This document shows, piece after piece, positions 3,681 to 64,000 of a stretch of 64,000 nt of DNA. Below the pieces are notes generated by a model that saw only the letters and a list, made by a program, of their open reading frames with translations, ran no database searches and had not been told where the DNA came from. Origin of the DNA: Heptranchias perlo (Eukaryota); contig NC_090329.1 of assembly GCF_035084215.1 (NCBI RefSeq), positions 70,060,001 through 70,124,000 of the forward strand, in the 5' to 3' direction. Each line of letters begins with the position of its first letter. Within the stretch, counting starts at the first letter, position 1. Made by a program: the position numbers and the translations under genes.

Positions 3681-3886
3681 TTAGTGAACAGTGCTCACTG
3701 TTGTGGGTATCTGTTTCTTATTCTGCCCTCTTCGTTTCTTGTTTTCAGGCTTTTCTTTCCTTACTCGTTCTTCTCTGTTGTCTTTATTTTCTTTGCCCCT
3801 ACTGCTGACTTTAGCTTGTTTGCCTTGCATTGCTTCTTTATTGCCTTCTTTTGTTGATTTATTTTTCTTCTCTTTGCCCTTAGTTC
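3681..3886 (-). CDS. rspo3: R-spondin 3, last coding exon (basic C-terminal tail)
   Basis: Acceptor ttttatcttag|GA at 3887-3888, phase 1 matching the upstream exon; GTKGKEKKNK...KKRRGQNKKQIPTTVSTVH*; the VSTVH terminus is characteristic of RSPO3. Confidence 0.93.
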
Positions 3887-19250: not shown

Positions 19251-19415
19251 TTGTTACTTTATCATTACAAATAGATTGTAACAAGTTGTAATCATTCCTA
19301 AAGTTACCAATATTTATGGACTTGAAGCAGGAAGTTATCAAATGCCTATCAGTCTGGCAGGCAGTGGGGTGTTGTGAAGACTCCAAAGTAAAGCTAACTG
19401 AGATCAGCTGATTTA

Positions 19416-19540
19416 AATACTACGGATGCTGGAAATCTGAAATAAAAACAGAAAATGCTGGAAAAGCTCAGCAAGAGAGGCAGCATCTGTGGAGAAAGAA
19501 ACAGAGTTAACGTTTCAGGTCGAAGACCTTTCGTCAGAAC
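19416..19540 (-). mobile_element. 125-bp Penelope-like terminal fragment with 12-bp TSD
   Basis: TCAGCTGATTTA at 19404-19415 and 19541-19552; same sequence as 29070-29185 and 63895-64000. Confidence 0.8.
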
Positions 19541-19542
19541 TC
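19504..19542 (-). ncRNA. Minimal type I hammerhead ribozyme, intact core
   Basis: Minus strand gagtt-CTGACGA-a-aggtc(ttc)gacct-GAAA-cg-TT-aactc: stem I, stem II and a palindromic vestigial stem III. Confidence 0.75.
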
Positions 19543-20489
19543 AGCTGATTTACTTTGTTTCTTGTTCCCAAATTGCACTCAATGTAAAATAAAGTATCTG
19601 AAATTTTAGTTAAAAGTTAACAGTTGATACAAAATAACAATAAAGCAGGTGTAGGCACGGTAAACTCCACTTAAAATATCAACATCTACAACCACACTGC
19701 ACGATCTCTTCCAAACTACACCCAAAGCATACTGGGGCCACAAGTCTGTAGCCCCTCCATTGCACTTCCACCATATATCTGGGTGTGGCAAAGGGGCCAG
19801 GAATTAGGCCAGGACCCAGCAAATCCGACCCTGGCCTTCTCCACCAGTTTCTGTGGGGCCTCATATGGGAGGGCATCTCCGTCCGCCCCAAACAAGATCA
19901 CCCAAGTCAAAGGAGGCAAGGCCAGGGAACAGTGGACTCCCAGACCAGGAGTGTCCTCATCCCTGGTCTGGCAGAATAGCAGCAGCCAGTGAAAAGAGAC
20001 TGGACACAAAATACTTGTAGTTTACTGTACTTCCAAAGGGTTTCTGTCACTCAGATTTATAATGCGTTGTGCTTTAGACAGATTAATTGTAATGCAGGAC
20101 ATTATTAAATGGAATTGAAAGAAAGCCTATTTGTTCCCAGCTTTTAAATTGGGCCTATTATCAATTATATTGTTTACATATATCTAATGCAGAGCATTAA
20201 CAGAGTTTGATTTCATCTGGTTCCCCAGGGAAAGGGAAAAAAGATAAAAATGAAAGGCAAGTTAAGCTGTCATACTCGATGCAATACCCACCCAAGATCA
20301 ACATTAGCAGAGTGCTGGGGATATATCAGAGTGAATTTTCTGCTGGGTGTTACAGCTGGTTTGATTCAGGGAAATGTGTGGCTAATGTTACTGCCTGGTT
20401 CCTGCTGAACATGTGCTCTGAGCACTTCTGTTGGGGCTGTATGTCCATGGTAATAACACTCCTTTTGAGCAAGAGTAACATTAAACATA

Positions 20490-20622
20490 TGTAAGGAATC
20501 TTACAACACCAGGTTATAGTCCAACAGTTTTATTTGAAATATAACTGTTGGACTATAACCTGGTGTTGTAAGATTCCTTACATTTGTCCACCCCAGTCCA
20601 TCACCGGCATCTCCACATCATT
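20490..20622. mobile_element. Penelope-like fold-back insertion with collapsed centre, 10-bp TSD
   Basis: ATTAAACATA at 20480-20489 and 20623-20632; arms about 20489-20530 and 20541-20583; matches 1-192 in reverse. Confidence 0.8.
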
Positions 20623-29061: not shown

Positions 29062-29470
29062 CAAAAGGAAAATACTGCAGATGCTGGAAATCTGAAATAA
29101 AACCAGAAAATGCTGGAAATACTCAGCATCTGTGGAAAGAGAAACAGAGTTAATGTTTCAGGTCGATGACCTTTCGTCAGAACTGGAAGAAGTAAAGATT
29201 TAGCCGTTTTTAAGCAAGTACAGAGCCAGGGAAAGGGGGCGGGTGCAGAGATGGGGAAGCGAGGAAAGAACAAAAGGGGAGGTCTGTGACAGGATGGAGG
29301 TCAGGAGTGATTAAATGACAAAAGAGATGATGATGCAAGGCAAAAGGGATGGTAATGGAACAAGTAAAGAAACAAAAGATGGGTCTTGAGGAGCTGTAAA
29401 TGGCAATAGCAGAAATGGCAACCAGCATCTGCTGTCCGAAAAAATGGGAGCAGTGGCTATGAGCTGAAGT
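29062..29470 (-). mobile_element. Penelope-like 3' fragment with a hammerhead motif at 29147-29185
   Basis: Minus strand cagtt-CTGACGA-a-aggtc(atc)gacct-GAAA-ca-tt-aact; pyrimidine-rich 3' region upstream of the motif. Confidence 0.7.
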
Positions 29471-51838: not shown

Positions 51839-52036
51839 CTTTTTCTCCTGCTGGACATCGTTTTTTCTGCACAGTACATTTCCTTGTCTCAGTGATTTTT
51901 GGACAGGGGTTGCCATGTGCTGAAGGGAACTGCACAATTTCTCGCTTCCTTGACTCACTGCCTCTCCGGAAACCACACGTCTTCCCTCGCTTTGTGCAGG
52001 CACTCCACGCGTTCCACTCGCTTACTTCACAGTGCA
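51839..52036 (-). CDS. rspo3: R-spondin 3, TSP1-domain exon (198 bp, phase 1-1)
   Basis: ttcgtttgcag|TG CAC...AAA G|gtaag; VHCEVSEWNAWSACTKRGKTCGFRRGSESRKREIVQFPSAHGNPCPKITETRKCTVQKKRCPAGEK matches the RSPO3 TSP1 pattern. Confidence 0.96.
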
Positions 52037-52844: not shown

Positions 52845-55416
52845 TTTTGTCTGAATCTAACTTAGACTTTCGGGATAAATTTTAGTGTGCACTTTCTCTA
52901 CGGACCGCAAGGGTCAGAAATGAAATACGTTTGAGCCGTCTCAATCAAGTTCCTCGTGGGTGCAAAATCCACAGCACAACTCCCTCCCCCCCCCCAAAAT
53001 AATTGTGGTAAACTGTCATATTTTAGGATTGCTGATTATGCCACCGCAGGGGGACATTGGTGCAATATGTTAAAAATGCTACTATTTAGTAAAACTTAGC
53101 TCTCAGTGGTAGGGTGGGGGTGGGGGGGGTTAAACTCAGGACAGTGGAGCTGCAGTTATATATTAAGATTCAGACAGTGTGTCTGAACCTATATACTTCA
53201 GACAATAATAGGTAGATTAATATTCTAGTGTTCAGTCACACTTAATGCTGGAGTGACAATTCTATTCATTCTAACTCAGCAGGAGACATTAGCAGGTTAG
53301 CTTGGGGGATTCCACTCTTGGATGGGTGGGTGGGATAGCCTGTTTGACTGAAAGCTGACACTGGAATCAGGATGACTTGAGAAAAAAATCAGGAGGCTCC
53401 AGGGAGAGGAGGTCCTGCCCTGGGCTGATGGTCAAAATGAATGGGTTCATTTTCTTACAGTTAGTAGTTGTACAGAAAGTAAAATAATTCTGAAAATACT
53501 AGTAAGACAATCCACCTATGTGGAATAGCACGGTGAGTTAATTGTTTTCTTTATGTATGGGAGGTGAAGTTAGTTTTGATTACAACTTGTACCTGTATTT
53601 TCATGTGCTGTGAAATAAAGCAGCATAACAATTAGCATATGGGCTTGTCTCATCAAATGCCTGCTCAGTCCGTCTTCAACAACAACAACATCAACAACTT
53701 GCATTTATATAGTGCCTTTAACGTAGTAAAAATGTCCCACGGCACTTCACAGGAGATTGAAGAAGTACACGTGCGAAAGACAAGAATATCAGTTAAGGTC
53801 ATATGGGCATATTATTGTTACACCCCGAATTACGCTATTGTGCAAATAGATCTAGTGCAGTATGAATCAACTTCCATAGACGTAAGAAGCTCAGACTGCT
53901 TAGGGGAGCAACTAATGCCATTGAACCCAAGAAAGGTATCTATGGCAGACCTGAATTTGTAACATAGGCCATATGACTGGTGTGGAAAATAAAAATGTCA
54001 CAGTGGCATAGAAGGGTTCACTTCTACGGTGGGATTAAGATATTGTTGGAGCTAATTGAGACTCTTCACGGCTATTTTGTATTGGTGTTGTAATGGGTCC
54101 TCCAGACAACTGCTCTTAGTGAGTCCCAGAGGTTTTACATGAAGTTTTCAGCAGACTGTGCAAAAGCCGCACTTTGGGAATTGGTGGGCTAAACAGCCCA
54201 CGGGCACCAATGTAAAAGGGACTTTACTTGCGTTTTGCAGATGCAATACACTTGATACCAACACAGGTTTAAAAAGTGAAAAGTGCTTCATCTCTCAGTA
54301 CTAACGTTCATTTGATGGGCAATAAACTCATCAAGAATGAATTGATACCTCACAACATTCATCTTGAGCCTAGCCGTTGAAAGTATTATGCATGCATCTT
54401 GCATACTACTGGTCTACCTCACCTTGAGTGGACCACATATCATTAGGGACAAAAATAGATGAATTCTACTGTCAGTCTCCGCTTTGTTTCTTATGTACAA
54501 TGAAGTCTGCTATTTCATCAATGTTTTCCTTTGCTGGTTTATTTTTAAAATGTAAAAAAAAGAGCATCCTCTATATTACATTGGTGCAAGTTATTCAAGC
54601 TTAAAGGAGGCGCTCAGAAAACTCTGAAGGATGAACAAAAACAAAAAGACTAAAGTCACAGATACTTACCTCCTTTAATGGAATCTTTCAGAATTGTAAA
54701 ACCCTCTTTATTATAGTAGCAAGCAGTATTTTAGTTATAACAACACTTCTGGTGCAGTAACATTCAGTTCTGCAATGTTATATTACCCCTTTTACTATAA
54801 TAATATATAACACTTTTCCTGTAGTAACATGCAGTCTTTCAGGACAACCATTACATTTGTGTACCAACATCAAATGTATAACCATAGTACACTTTCAAAG
54901 ATTAATGAGAAAAGATTGCAAATAAAGAAAAGCTATGCAATAAAGAATACTTTAGAATATTCATCATTACAAATTTACAAAGGCATATTCACAGAAACTG
55001 AAAGAAAAGTGATTCCTATATGTACGAATTAAGAACATACGAACATACAAATTAAGAGCAGGAGTAGGCCATTCGGCCCCTCGAGCCTGCTCTGCCATTT
55101 GATAAGATCATGGCTGATCTGATTGTGACCTCAACCCTACTTTCCCGTCTACCTACTATAACCTTTGACTCCCTTGTTAATCAGGAATCTATCTAACTCA
55201 GCCTTAAAAATATTCAATGACCCTGCCTCCACCGCTCTCTGGGGAAGGGAGTTCCACAGGCACATGACCCTCTGAGAGAAAATTTTTTTCCACATCTCCT
55301 TCTTAAATGGGGGACCCCTTATTTTTAAACTGTGTCCCCTAGTTTTAGTCTCTCCCACAGGGGGAATCATCCTCTCAGTATCTACCGCTTCAAGTCCCCT
55401 CAGGATCTTATATGTT

Positions 55417-58348
55417 GTACAATCTCGCTAAAAAAAGTCATATTAAGAATAAAACCAGACGGACCACCCGGCATCGGACCACTAGGCGCCGGACACGACA
55501 AAGGCAAACCAAGCCCTGTAAAGTCCTCCTCCTCAATAACATCTGGGGACTTGTGCCAAAATTGGGAGAGCTGTCCCACAGACTAGTCAAGCAACAGCCT
55601 GACATAGCCAGACTCACAGAATCATACCTTTCAGCCAACGTCCCAGACTCTTCCATCACCATCCCTGGCTATATCCTGTCCCACCAGCAGGACAAACCGA
55701 CCAGAGGTGGCGGTACAGTGATATACAGTCAGGAGGGAGTGGCCCTGGGAGTCCTCAACATTGACTCCGGACCCCATGAAATCTCATGGCATCAGGTTAA
55801 ACATGGGCAAGGAAAACTCCTGCTGATGACCACCTACCGCCCTCCCTCAGCTGATGAATCAGTCCTCCTCCATGTTGAACACCACTTGGAGGAAGCACTG
55901 AGGGTTGCAAGGGCACAGAATGAACTTTGGGTGGGGGACGTCAATGTCCATCATCAAGAGTGGCTCGGTAGCACCACTACCGACCGAGCTGGCCGAGTCC
56001 TGAAGGACATAGCTGCTAGACTGGGCCTACGGCAGGTGGTCAGCGAACCAACACGAGGGAAAAACCTACTTAACCTCGTCCTCACCAATCTACCTGTCGC
56101 AAATGCATCTGTCCATGACAGTATTGGTAAGGGTGATCACCGCACAGTCCTCGTGGAGACGAAGTCCCGTCTTCGCACGGAGGACACCATCCAACATGTT
56201 GTGTGGCACTATCACCGTGATAAATGGGATAGATTCAGAACAGCAGCTCAAAACTGGGCAACCATGAGGCACTGTGGGTCATCAGCAGCAGCGAAATTGT
56301 ATTCCAGCACAATCTGTAACCTGGCATATTCCTCACTCTGCCATTACCAACAAGCCAGGCGATCAACCCTGGTTCAATGAGGTGTGTAGAAGAGCATGCC
56401 AGGAGCAGCACCAGGCGTAACTAAAAATGAGGTGCCAACCTGGTGAAGCTACAACTCAGGACTACATGCATGCTAAACAGCTGAAGCAACATGCTATAGA
56501 CAGAGCTAAGCGATTCCACAACCAACGGATCAGATCAAAGCTCTGCTGTCCTGCCACATCCAGTCGTGAAGGGTGGTGGACAATTAAACAACTAATGGGA
56601 GGAGGAGGCTCTGTAAACATCCCATCCTCAATGATGGCGGAGTCCAGCACGTGAGTGCAAAAGAGAAGGCTGAAGCGTTTGCAACCATCTTCAGCCAGAA
56701 GTGCCGAGTGGATGATCCATCTCGGCCTCCTCCCGATATCCCCACCATCACAGAAGCCAGTCTTCAGCCAATTCGATTCATTCCACGTTATATCAAGAAA
56801 TGGCTGAGTGCACTGGATACAGCAAAGGCTATGGGCCCCGTCAACGTCCCGGCTGTAGTGCTGAAGACTTGTGCTCCAAAACTAGCTGCGCTTCCAGCCA
56901 AGCTGTTCCAGTACAGCTACAACACTGGCATCTACCCGACAATGTGGAAAATTGCCCAGGCATGTCTTGTCCACAAAAAAAAGCAGGACAAATCCAGTCC
57001 CATCAGTCTACTCTCAATCATCAGCAAAGTGATGGAAGATGTCGTCGACAGCGCTATCAAGCGGCACTTGCTCACCAATAACCTGCTCACTGATGCTCAG
57101 TTTGGGTTCCGCCAGGACCACTCGGCTCCAGACCTCATTACAGCCTTAGACCAAACATGGACAAAACTGCTGAATTCCAGAGGTGAAGTGAGAGTTACTG
57201 CCCTTGACATCAAGGCAGCATTTGACCGAGTGTGGCACCAAGGAGCCCTAGTAAAATTGAAGTCAATGGGAATCATGGGGAAAACTCTCCAGTGGCTGGA
57301 GTCATACCTAGCACAAAGGAAGATGGTAGTGGTTGTTGGAGGCCAATCATCTCAGCCCCAGGACATTGCTGCAGGAGTTCCTCAGGGCTGTGTCCTAGGC
57401 TCAACCATCTCCAGCTGCTTCATCAATGACCTTCCCTCCATCATAAGGTCAGAAATGGGGATGTTCGCTGATGATCGCACAGTGTTCAGTTCCATTCGCA
57501 ACACATTAGATAATGAAGCAAGACCCGGACAACATCCAGGCTTGGGCTGATAAGTGGCAAGTATCATTCACGCCAGACAAGTGCCAGGCAATGACCATCT
57601 CCAACAAGAGAGAGTCTAACCACCTCCCCTCGACATCCAACGGCATTACCATCGCCGAATCCCCCACCATCAACATCCTGGGGATCACCATTGACCGGAA
57701 ACTTAACTGGACCAGCCATATAAATACTGTGGCTACAGGAGCAGGTCAGAGACTGGGTATTCTGTGGTGATTGACTCACCTCCTGACTCCCCAAAGCCTT
57801 TCTACCATCTACAAGGCACAAGTCAGGGGTGTGATGGAATACTCTCCACTTGCCTGGATGAGTGCAGCTCCAACAACACTCAAGAAGCTCAATACCATCC
57901 AGGACAAAGCAGCCCGCTTGATTGGCACCCCATCCACCACCCTAAACATTCACTCCCTTCACCACCGGCGCACTGTGGCTGCAGTGTGTACCATCCACAG
58001 GATGCACTGCAGCAACTCGCCAAGGCTTCTTCGACAGCACCTCCCAAACCCGTGACCTCTACCAACTAGAAGGACAAGAGCAGAGGCATATGGGAACTAC
58101 ACCACTTGCACTTTCCCCTCCAAGTCACACACCATCCCGATTTGGAAATATATCGCTGTTCCTTCATCGTCGCTGGGTCAAAATCCTGGAACTCCCTTCC
58201 TAACAGCACTGTGGGAGAAACTTCACCACATGGACTGCAGCGGTTCAAGAAGGTGGCTCACCACCACCTTCTCAAGGGCAATTAGGGATCGGCAATAAAT
58301 GCAGGCGTCACCAGTGACGCCCACATCCCATGAACGAATAAAAAAAAA
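55417..58348 (+). mobile_element. LINE-B, longest copy (2.9 kb): Arg-rich leader, APE, RT, 3' stem-loop, poly(A); frameshifted
   Basis: ORFs 55412-56380, 56651-57550, 57513-58055. Confidence 0.96.
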
Positions 58349-59368
58349 TGATTCAACAAGATCACCTCTCATTCTTCTAAACTCCACTGTATTAGGCCCA
58401 ACTTGTCCAACCTTTCCTCATAAGATAACCCCCTCATCCCAGGAATCGGTCGAGTGAACCTTCTCTGAACTGCCTCTGAAGCAATTATGTCATTTCTTAA
58501 ATAAGGAGACCAAAACTGCACACAGTATTCTCGATGCGGTCTCACCAATGCCCTGTACAACTGTAGCAAAACATCTCTACTTTTATATTCCATTCCCCTT
58601 GCAATGAATGACAACATTCCATTTGCCTTCCTAATCACTTGCTGTACCTGCATACTAACTTTTTGTGATTCATGTACTAGGACACCCAGATCCCTCTGTA
58701 CCTCAGAGTTCTGCAATCTCACTCCATTTAAATAATACACTGACTTTCTATTCCTCCTGCCAAAGTGAACAAGTTCTCATTTTCCCATATTATACTCCAT
58801 CTGCGAAATTTTTGCCCACTCACTTAACCTATCTATATCCTTTGCAGACTCCTTGGGCGCTAAATTGGGTTGTGTAGCGCCCATTGTTTCAGCGCTACAC
58901 GGCCTCTCTGACATCCAAGATAGAGTCTTGGATGCGCACGCAGATTTCCAGCGTGACGTGCGCCGGACGCCATCTTGGTATAGCAGTTAACGCACGCGCA
59001 AAAACTGAACGCTGGAAGCATGTAAAGTAGGGAGAAAATGCGTGCAATCAGTGTGCAACGCTGATTTAAAGTGATAGACACCATTTTCGACATTAACACT
59101 CAACTTAATGCACAGTCTTAACCCTGACCATCTGAACGTGTCTTCGAGTGCCTGAAGGACCCCCCACCAGCGCTATTTAAAGGGGCCATGCAGGTGTTGC
59201 AGGTTAGTTGCTGGATTATTGCTGCTGGCTGCTGGTGGAGTAGGAAGTGTTTTCTGAAGCTCCCTATTCTTATTGAGAGTTCCTACAGTACATGTGAGAG
59301 TTGTTTGGCAGGTACTGCTTTACAGGTCGGAAAGTTACAGCTGTGGTTGAACAACATTCCTGCCAACA

Positions 59369-60565
59369 ATGGGCGGTCCACTAGGGCTCCCGCTGGGCAT
59401 TGAGCATGACTGGGACCATGCAGAGAAGCCACATATAGCAGGTCATGCTGCGAGGAGACGGAGGACGAGGAGGCGCAGGGCACTGAGCAGAAGGCCCTAC
59501 CCAATGAGTGCCTTCTGGGACCAATTCTCTTACCTCAACATGACCGAGGAGGATTGCTTTCGACGCCTGAGGTTCACCAAGGAAGCAGTCACCGAGATCT
59601 GTCAACTGGTGCGGCCACAACTGCAGGCTCAGAGCAGGGCAAGGACAGCATTGCCTGTGGCTGTGAAGGTCACCATGGCGCTGAATTTCTATGGCTCAGG
59701 ATCATTTCAGGCCTCTGCTGGTGACATGTCCAACATCTTGCAGCATGCAGTGCACTGCTGCATAAGGGAGGTCACAGACATACTGTACCACATGAGGAAC
59801 AGGTTCATCATCTCTCTTGACAGTGACAAGCAGAACAAGCGAGCACGGGGGTTCACCCGCATTGCTGGCTTCCCCATGGTGTAGACTGCCATTGACTGCA
59901 CACATATTGCCCTGCGTGCCCCGCACATCAACTCGGCTGTCTTCGTCAACCAAAAGGGCTTCTGCTCCCTCAAACTGCAGCTGGTGTGCGACCACACGCA
60001 TCGGATTATGGAGGTCGATGCCCGCTACCCTGGAGCTGTCACGACGCTTTCGTCGTGCAGCAGTCCGACATGCCAGCTATCTTTCACCCGACTCAGTAGT
60101 CAAAGGCTGGCTACTGGGCGACAAGGGCTATCCCCTCACGCCATGGCTCATGACACTGGTCAGGAACCCACGCACACGTGCACAGCAGGCCTATAATGAG
60201 AGCCATGCTATCACACACATCGTGGAGCACACCATAGACCTCCACAAACAACACTTCCGCTGCCCGGACTGGTCTGAGGAGCCCTGCAGTACTCCCCTGA
60301 GCGGGTGGGCAGATTTGTGATGGTATGTTGCATGCGGCACAACCTCGCCATCATGAGGGACAAGCCTTTGCCACCAATGATTGGAGAAGACCCTGAGCAA
60401 GAGGCTAAGGAGGAGGAGGAGGAAGAGGCTGAGGAGGAGGAGGAGGAGAAGGAGGAGGGGGTGGAGCCGCAAGAGGAAGTGGAGGAAGACGCAAGGAAGC
60501 AACAGGAACCACACAACTTGTCTGCAAGGGCTCCGCGTGCTCACCTGATCCGTGCAATAATTTGA
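59369..60565 (+). pseudogene. Harbinger (HARBI1-like) DDE transposase with premature stop and frameshifts
   Basis: CFRRLRFTKE, ALNFYGSGSFQ, GFPMV*TAIDCTHI, LLGDKGYPL, HIVEHTI, CCMRHNL, acidic tail; AATAAA at 60673-60678. Confidence 0.93.
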
Positions 60566-63884: not shown

Positions 63885-64000
63885 GTTCTTTTTCCAGTTC
63901 TCCAACCTGAATCATTAACTGTTTCTTTCTCCACAGATGCTGCCTGACTTGCTGAGTATTTCCAGCATTTTCTATTTTTATTTCAGATTTCCAGCATCTG
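63885..64000 (+). mobile_element. Penelope-like terminal fragment, hammerhead core eroded
   Basis: Reverse similarity to 19416-19540. Confidence 0.7.

What the first reader, a model, noticed from the sequence alone, without database searches (positions are those of the whole stretch)
19504..19542. Intact minimal hammerhead ribozyme in the sense strand of the rspo3 last intron
Seen: the minus strand reads gagtt-CUGACGA-a-aggucuucgaccu-GAAA-cg-UU-aacuc. All core nucleotides are present, with a 5-bp stem II, a 5-bp stem I completed by flanking TSD bases, and a vestigial palindromic stem III (AACGUU). It lies in a 125-bp insertion with a 12-bp TSD. Known: Penelope-like elements carry such minimal hammerheads, which are thought to cleave as dimers. 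Inference: it is transcribed with every rspo3 pre-mRNA and could cut the intron, affecting splicing to the basic-tail exon.
Basis: partly seen in the sequence, partly recalled or inferred. Interest (0 to 1): 0.7.

Follow-up and report, generated by a model that had tools for sequence, protein, structure and literature searches.

The report
Penelope stump with dormant hammerhead
The self-cutting-RNA motif in this R-spondin intron is real and complete, but it is the front end of a Penelope-type jumping gene that left about 7,000 such motifs in this genome, and this lone, likely recent copy likely does not cut the gene's RNA or regulate it.

Summary
The minus strand at 19542-19504 has every minimal type-I hammerhead core base, inside a 125-bp insert with a 12-bp duplication, sense in the 48-kb last intron of an R-spondin gene (likely rspo3). 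The insert is the short end repeat (pLTR) of a Neptune-type Penelope-like retrotransposon: other copies run into RT and GIY-YIG frames. 6,994 places carry the intact core plus palindrome (control 0). Stem I's A belongs to the element; only the G is non-native. A related species' contig crosses the site without the insert, and three RNA contig sets from the sample whose DNA runs carry the insert join exon 4 straight to the basic-tail exon. The monomer is predicted to bury its core. The only same-strand partner in the intron is 9.6 kb away with a broken palindrome. Published minimal hammerheads do not cut as monomers, and one needs the element's protein. Core bases vary less than stems across copies, but core G8 decays at CpG, which suggests selection during transposition, not after insertion. 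5' ends cluster at the ribozyme's 5' edge, not at its cut site. The scan noted this kind before in other genomes. Verdict: known kind, likely inert passenger.

The parts
19504..19542 (-). Minimal type-I hammerhead motif: stem I 19542-19538 with 19508-19504; core CUGACGA 19537-19531; bulged A 19530; stem II 19529-19517; GAAA 19516-19513; ACGU palindrome 19513-19510; H17 at 19509 (predicted cut between 19509 and 19508)
   Evidence: matches the min-HHR description in PMC4209133
19416..19541 (-). Solo pLTR fragment of a Neptune-type Penelope-like element, from the A of stem I to just short of the 'tail' end; 97.6-98.4% identical to the closest copies
19541..19552 (.). Target-site duplication copy at the element's 5' side; its last two bases (GA on the minus strand) overlap the element's 5' end
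19404..19415 (.). Target-site duplication copy at the element's 3' side (12 of 12 identical)
29070..29186 (-). Second, longer copy of the same family in the same intron and strand (native upstream sequence continues to about 29420 by eye); core intact, but G16.2>A breaks the palindrome (ACAU)
51839..52036 (-). R-spondin TSP1 exon (exon 4 by analogy), donor of the host intron
3681..3886 (-). R-spondin last coding exon (basic tail), acceptor of the host intron, 15.6 kb downstream of the predicted cut

Best explanation
This is a lone 5'-end fragment (pLTR) of a Neptune-type Penelope-like retrotransposon, one of about 7,000 copies with an intact minimal hammerhead, that landed, likely recently, in the last intron of an R-spondin gene (likely rspo3) and likely stays uncut and without effect there. 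SHOWN: the motif, the duplication, the family and its RT + Zn-linker + GIY-YIG parent, the copy number, the empty site in a related species' contig, and normal exon 4-exon 5 joining. INFERRED origin: the element's RNA likely starts at the A of stem I (the context fits a YYANWYY initiator consensus, recalled). The element's RT likely started internally 100-140 nt downstream, at the known 'tail' sites, copied an uncut RNA to its 5' end and joined it to the target by 1-2 nt of microhomology. The ribozyme is kept intact by selection on mobile source elements, and likely needs a partner copy and the element's protein to fire. INFERRED fate here: as a monomer in host pre-mRNA it is predicted to fold its core onto its own cut site, so it would be far too slow for the roughly 4-minute window before the acceptor is transcribed (15.6 kb at the 3.5-4.1 kb/min mammalian rate quoted in PMC10919898; likely longer in a cold-blooded animal).
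For: Parent element: 7 of the loci compared share >=1,400 bp upstream of the motif, with RT motifs, a CX4CXXC linker and a GIY-YIG-like frame (Pfam GIY-YIG E=0.0097, below cut-off). 3 loci continue downstream into the ORF start. Copy number: 6,994 and 6,452 for a downstream anchor. 26 of 74 copies with a whole hammerhead region are fully intact. Empty site: one 1,744-nt contig of organism B (about 90% identical flanks) joins 19397 to 19560 with 18 letters between. Splicing: 4 of 4 RNA-type runs, 3 from the sample whose DNA runs carry the insert, each give one 1.9-2.5 kb contig joining exon 4 to the last exon. Folding: monomer MFE -11.5 kcal/mol pairs UGACG with CGUUA; open form -8.8; double hammerhead -15.5 vs -23.0 for two monomers. 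Decay: core G8>A in 5 of 40 CpG-context copies, within the range of non-core CpG sites (6-17 of 74). Ends: 21 of 90 copies have their 5' boundary within -5..+5 of stem I's first base (p=3e-5 vs neighbouring positions); there is no comparable peak at the cut site (8 of 30 sampled from 287, against 6 of 30 from 248 one base on); 3' ends cluster at about 94-106 and 128-141. Literature: monomer no cleavage, dimers low (PMC4209133); anole PLE hammerhead cuts only with protein and shows no RNA-seq ends at the site (PMC11167929); slow intronic ribozymes do not affect splicing (Fong 2009 as cited in PMC10919898).
Against: No cleavage assay or 5'-OH/cyclic-phosphate data exist here. The RNA data are contigs, which drop rare isoforms, cannot show ends, and are of unknown tissue. 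Core bases are about 2.5-fold less variable than stems across copies (16 of 740 vs 39.7 expected, p=2e-5; 7 of 490 vs 38 of 735); I read this as source-element selection but did not separate shared from private changes on a tree. This copy is the only fully intact one among about 11 insertions in 264 kb, and its stem I is 1 bp longer than the family's. Stems I and II do form in 5 of 6 flank contexts tested. The 18 letters at organism B's site do not reproduce one duplication copy exactly (25 letters expected), so a deletion in B is not excluded. Nearest-neighbour energies ignore tertiary contacts, Mg2+ and proteins.
Confidence: 0.85

Rival explanations
1. Conditional, element-driven cutting: when the Penelope protein or RNA is expressed (e.g. 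in the germline), it would chaperone or pair in trans with intronic sense copies, so this and many other host pre-mRNAs would be cut now and then, as collateral damage.
For: The anole PLE hammerhead cleaves once protein is added (PMC11167929). About 7,000 intact cores exist. Family-matching contigs are deep in an RNA-type run. Related retrozymes are depleted from introns in Xenopus (bioRxiv 10.64898/2026.07.22.740005, passages).
Against: In the anole system the protein needs RNA reaching 172 nt into the ORF for insertion; this copy stops before the ORF. The trans dimer is predicted 7.5 kcal/mol worse than two monomers. There is no 5'-junction peak at the cut site, so even the element's own templates look uncut.
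Confidence: 0.07
2. One reading: the motif cuts every rspo3 pre-mRNA often enough, alone or as a dimer with the 29.1-kb copy, to lower splicing to the basic-tail exon, as the CPEB3 ribozyme does in its host.
For: Intact core, sense strand, 5-bp stem I; a second sense copy in the same intron; precedent for intronic ribozymes tuning splicing (PMC10919898).
Against: The partner is 9.6 kb away with a C-A mismatch in the 4-bp dimer helix. Monomers of this class show no cleavage. The insert is absent in organism B. Normal spliced contigs in 3 of 3 runs of the carrier sample.
Confidence: 0.04
3. A non-catalytic effect: the insert would act as a cryptic splice acceptor or weak internal promoter in the intron, giving a minor truncated R-spondin isoform.
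For: Four CAG sites in the sense insert have 15-16 pyrimidines in the preceding 20 nt, against 14 for the true acceptor (crude count, windows offset by a few bases). PLE pLTRs hold internal promoters in Drosophila (PMC2377424, passages).
Against: Only the canonical exon 4-5 join was seen in 4 of 4 RNA contig sets. The 29.1-kb copy and thousands of other copies carry the same signals.
Confidence: 0.04

Closest known systems
Minimal hammerheads (min-HHR) in pLTRs of metazoan Penelope-like elements (Cervera and de la Pena 2014, PMC4209133; Lunse et al. 2017, seen only as cited in PMC6765202)
   Same: Type I; full core; unpaired nucleotide between 9 and 10.1; palindromic 15.2-16.2 with no loop 3; 4-5 bp stem I; thousands of solo copies from truncated PLEs.
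   Different: Pair 10.1-11.1 is A-U here, not the usual G-C. A text search of the paper's readable supplement found no shark terms (one of two files not searched).
Neptune-clade EN+ Penelope-like elements (described in PMC8557442)
   Same: RT, CX2-5CXXC linker and C-terminal GIY-YIG; pLTR with hammerhead; 5' truncation, inverted 5' pieces and a 30-40 bp tail.
   Different: The window holds only a 126-bp pLTR piece; the clade was assigned by motifs, not by a tree.
Poseidon element of Anolis (PAc; PMC11167929)
   Same: Two internal RT start sites that define a tail; uncut RNA as template; hammerhead at the pLTR-ORF junction.
   Different: In PAc the ORF starts inside stem II; here the long frame appears to start well downstream of the hammerhead (by eye). 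Activity is untested here.
Host-gene intronic ribozymes: CPEB3 HDV-like (PMC10919898) and amniote intronic hammerheads (named in PMC6765202; the primary paper was not held)
   Same: A self-cleaving motif in the sense strand of a long intron.
   Different: Those are conserved at one locus, and the CPEB3 one cleaves with a 2-3 min half-life. This is a lineage-restricted repeat copy lacking a real stem III.

Membership tests
min-HHR of metazoan PLEs | Core C3 U4 G5 A6 N7 G8 A9, G12 A13 A14 A15.1, U16.1, H17 | tested here: met
min-HHR of metazoan PLEs | Extra nucleotide between 9 and 10.1; palindromic 15.2-16.2, no stable stem III | tested here: met
   bulged A 19530; ACGU (description)
min-HHR of metazoan PLEs | Stems I (4-5 bp) and II form | tested here: met
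   predicted pair probabilities: stem II >=0.94 in all contexts; outer stem I pairs 0.9-0.99 in most, 0.1 in one, 0.6 in another
min-HHR of metazoan PLEs | G10.1-C11.1 pair (typical, not universal) | tested here: not met
   A-U here and in 64 of 74 copies at 10.1
min-HHR of metazoan PLEs | Stem covariation among copies | tested here: inconclusive
   2 compensatory stem II changes in 74 copies of one young family; older families with 10-12 nt spacers keep the core, 287 vs control 42, pairs not counted
min-HHR of metazoan PLEs | Located in the pLTR of a PLE | tested here: met
   copies flank RT/GIY-YIG frames at both ends
min-HHR of metazoan PLEs | Self-cleavage as a dimer or with protein | not testable with these tools
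   needs an in vitro assay
Rfam hammerhead families (canonical HHR) | Covariance-model match | tested here: not met
   no hammerhead family at E<=10
Neptune-clade EN+ PLE | RT followed by C-terminal GIY-YIG endonuclease | tested here: met
   RT motifs by eye (no Pfam RT hit on fragments); GIY-YIG E=0.0097, below Pfam cut-off
Neptune-clade EN+ PLE | CX2-5CXXC linker between RT and EN | tested here: met
   CX4CXXC in several loci; criterion from PMC8557442, shared with Nematis
Neptune-clade EN+ PLE | RT phylogeny places it with Neptune | not tested
   no tree built
Non-LTR retrozyme (tandem HHR repeats) | At least two consecutive HHR-bearing units | tested here: not met
   single unit; next copy 9.6 kb away; criterion from the bioRxiv paper
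Domesticated intronic ribozyme | Conserved at the orthologous site across species | tested here: not met
   absent in the one species whose contig spans the site

The most novel reading that the evidence does not exclude
The thousands of intact sense-strand minimal hammerheads in host introns, this rspo3 copy among them, form a latent switch: when Penelope protein or RNA appears it activates them in trans and cuts host pre-mRNAs, here removing the basic-tail exon from R-spondin. A milder by-product is more likely (about 0.55; interest about 0.35): copy ends record that these elements are copied from uncut RNA that starts at the ribozyme's first base, with a cap-derived G seen mainly at inverted junctions.
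Probability: 0.05. Interest if true: 0.75.

Novelty: new member of a known kind. Interest (0 to 1): 0.15.

Why it matters
As found, it matters little: it is one more copy of a described ribozyme class on a described retroelement class. The family is a usable test bed for the open question of what Penelope hammerheads do, since its core is held under selection while its genomic copies come from uncut RNA. If cutting of host introns were shown, a transposon protein would be regulating host splicing through thousands of dormant ribozymes, which would be new.

Tried and rejected
Rfam scans found no hammerhead family; this is expected for a motif without stem III and is not evidence against it. The idea that the duplication builds stem I was narrowed to one base. 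Cap-derived G for this copy: among copies truncated at the A, G precedes it in about 68 of 142 (extrapolated from 30-locus samples of 75, 49 and 75 matches; background 0.30). The excess lies in inverted junctions (about 32 G, 5 A, 3 T). Simple junctions like this one show none (35 of 101, p=0.18), so the G here is not claimed as cap-derived; copies with C at that place were not counted. A fossil record of cleavage (5' junctions at the cut site) was not found. A spliced-leader origin of the GA copies was rejected because no shared sequence lies upstream of GA in the 30 loci shown (by eye). No RNA holder of the intronic stretch was listed, and RNA contigs do not cover this copy's junctions: no evidence either way. 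The protein atlas was unavailable. Lunse 2017 and de la Pena 2010 were not held. Intron orientation bias could not be tested without an annotation.

Full report
Observation. The minus strand at 19542-19504 carries the motif as described. A 12-bp direct duplication at 19404-19415 and 19541-19552 encloses 125 bp. The host gene is on the minus strand. It has a TSP1_spondin exon (E=2e-13; best PDB match R-spondin-2), a lysine-rich last exon, two Furin-like_2 exons just past the window end, and a RING+WWE gene about 60 kb downstream. The name rspo3 rests on my recall that RSPO3 lies next to RNF146 and ends in STVH; no call named the paralog. The intron spans 51838-3887 and the predicted cut lies 15.6 kb before the acceptor. 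That the organism is a cartilaginous fish is my inference, not a call result.

What it is. The insert is a repeat. A 35-nt hammerhead pattern matches 1,735 places, the core plus palindrome with a free 13-nt stem II matches 6,994, and a downstream anchor matches 6,452; controls were 0 in each. The closest copies are 97.6-98.4% identical. Seven loci share at least 1,400 bp upstream of the motif, encoding RT motifs, a CX4CXXC linker and a GIY-YIG-like segment (Pfam E=0.0097, under the cut-off). Three loci run on downstream into the N-terminal frame. This is the layout of a Neptune-type Penelope-like element with the hammerhead in its pLTR (PMC8557442, passages). The window holds two more copies: 29070-29184 (same strand, core intact, palindrome broken) and 63896-63998 (other strand, hammerhead broken). 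Of about 11 insertions in 264 kb around the locus, only this one is fully intact. Genome-wide that is not rare: 26 of 74 copies with a whole hammerhead region are intact.

Stem I and the ends. In 22 of 30 position-ordered copies the motif is preceded by the element's own upstream sequence ending in CCA, so the A of stem I is native and only the G is not. Of 90 copies picked by the downstream anchor (the first 90 of 6,452, all on contig C1), 21 have their 5' boundary within 5 nt of stem I's first base. That compares with 5 in the 15 nt before and 19 in the 31 nt after (p=3e-5). There is no matching peak at the cut site: 8 of 30 sampled from 287 matches are truncated there, and 6 of 30 from 248 one base further on. 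3' ends fall in two clusters about 30-35 nt apart, the 'tail' signature that PMC11167929 (parts 1-2 of the text read) ties to internal RT initiation. I infer that short copies such as this one are copies of the 5' end of uncut element RNA. A G before the A is enriched only at inverted junctions (about 32:5:3 for G:A:T), not at simple ones like this copy (35 of 101, p=0.18). These figures are extrapolated from samples of 30.

Selection. In 49 of the 90 copies (41 dropped as truncated, gapped or lacking native upstream), non-CpG core positions changed in 7 of 490 cells, stems in 38 of 735 and downstream sequence in 64 of 1,320. In a pooled set of 74 copies, the core had 16 of 740 against 39.7 expected from base-matched stem rates. 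However, the essential G8 mutates to A in 5 of 40 copies where it sits in a CpG, within the range of non-core CpG sites (6, 6, 17 and 17 of 74). I read this as constraint on source elements and neutral decay after insertion; it was not resolved on a tree. Only 2 compensatory stem II changes were seen.

This locus. DNA run X1 covers both junctions of the insert. A 1,744-nt contig of organism B (run X6) matches both flanks at about 90% (67 differences in 640 letters on the listed pieces) and joins 19397 to 19560 with 18 letters between, so it lacks the insert. The join is not a clean single duplication, and it is one species; the fourth run laid, X7, does not cover the site. Four RNA-type runs (three from the same sample as X1, one from organism G) each give one contig joining exon 4 directly to the first bases of the last exon. 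Contigs hide rare forms, so this shows normal splicing occurs, not that nothing else does.

Can it cut? The monomer's best fold (-11.5 kcal/mol) pairs the core UGACG with the cut-site CGUUA. The open-core form is -8.8, and a double hammerhead is -15.5 against -23.0 for two monomers. PMC4209133 (parts 1-2 of 4 read; supplement file 2 searched, file 1 not) reports no monomer cleavage and low dimer cleavage. The review PMC6765202 (passages) says the same, citing Lunse 2017, which I could not open. PMC11167929 found cleavage only with the element's protein, no need of cleavage for insertion, and no RNA-seq ends at the site. PMC10919898 (passages) states that only fast intronic ribozymes impair splicing. 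Together these make an effect on rspo3 unlikely, though untested.

Comparison and novelty. It works like, and by sequence is, a PLE min-HHR; it is not a retrozyme and not a domesticated intronic ribozyme (membership table). One search for hammerhead + Penelope-like + shark gave a single review (listing only), so this family may be unpublished, but five searches of a partial library cannot show absence. The scan holds 146 notes with these words in at least 23 genomes, with the same reading, including copying from a capped uncut 5' end. My note of that idea predates the look-up, and those notes are not independent support. Nothing was listed near this locus. Verdict: real motif, known kind, likely inert here; interest 0.15.

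Noticed in passing
window 29070-29420 (-): Second copy of the same Penelope family in the same intron, with about 230 bp more 3'-end sequence upstream; G16.2>A breaks its palindrome.
   Followed up: partly
window 63896-63998 (+): Third, 5'-truncated copy on the opposite strand, in the intron before the TSP1 exon; hammerhead broken.
   Followed up: partly
window 20483-20590: Near-perfect inverted repeat of about 100 bp; gives only sub-threshold miRNA matches in Rfam; looks like a small transposon footprint or a head-to-head repeat.
   Followed up: no
G000 genome-wide: 5' ends of short copies cluster at the first base of hammerhead stem I, and copies with an inverted 5' piece nearly always have G before it, as expected if a 5' cap were copied.
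   Followed up: partly
L181, L187, L275, L296: Another repeat with a shared GC-rich end sits inserted at the same GTTAAC site beside the hammerhead cut site in several copies, suggesting a target preference.
   Followed up: no
L321-L332 and one search list: Older hammerhead-bearing families with 10-12 nt stem II spacers, some with a GUC triplet (287 matches vs 42 control).
   Followed up: no
window 55349-56377 (+) and 59351-59881 (+): An endonuclease/RT (LINE-type) frame fragment (Pfam Exo_endo_phos_2) and a frame resembling a Harbinger-type transposase (by eye; no Pfam hit) in the intron before the TSP1 exon.
   Followed up: no
L314:1658-2782 (-), about 57 kb left of the window: RING + WWE open frame (RNF146-like) downstream of the R-spondin gene on the same strand.
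   Followed up: yes
window 19487-19429 (-): The sense insert carries four acceptor-like CAG sites with long pyrimidine tracts; none was seen used in the RNA contigs.
   Followed up: partly
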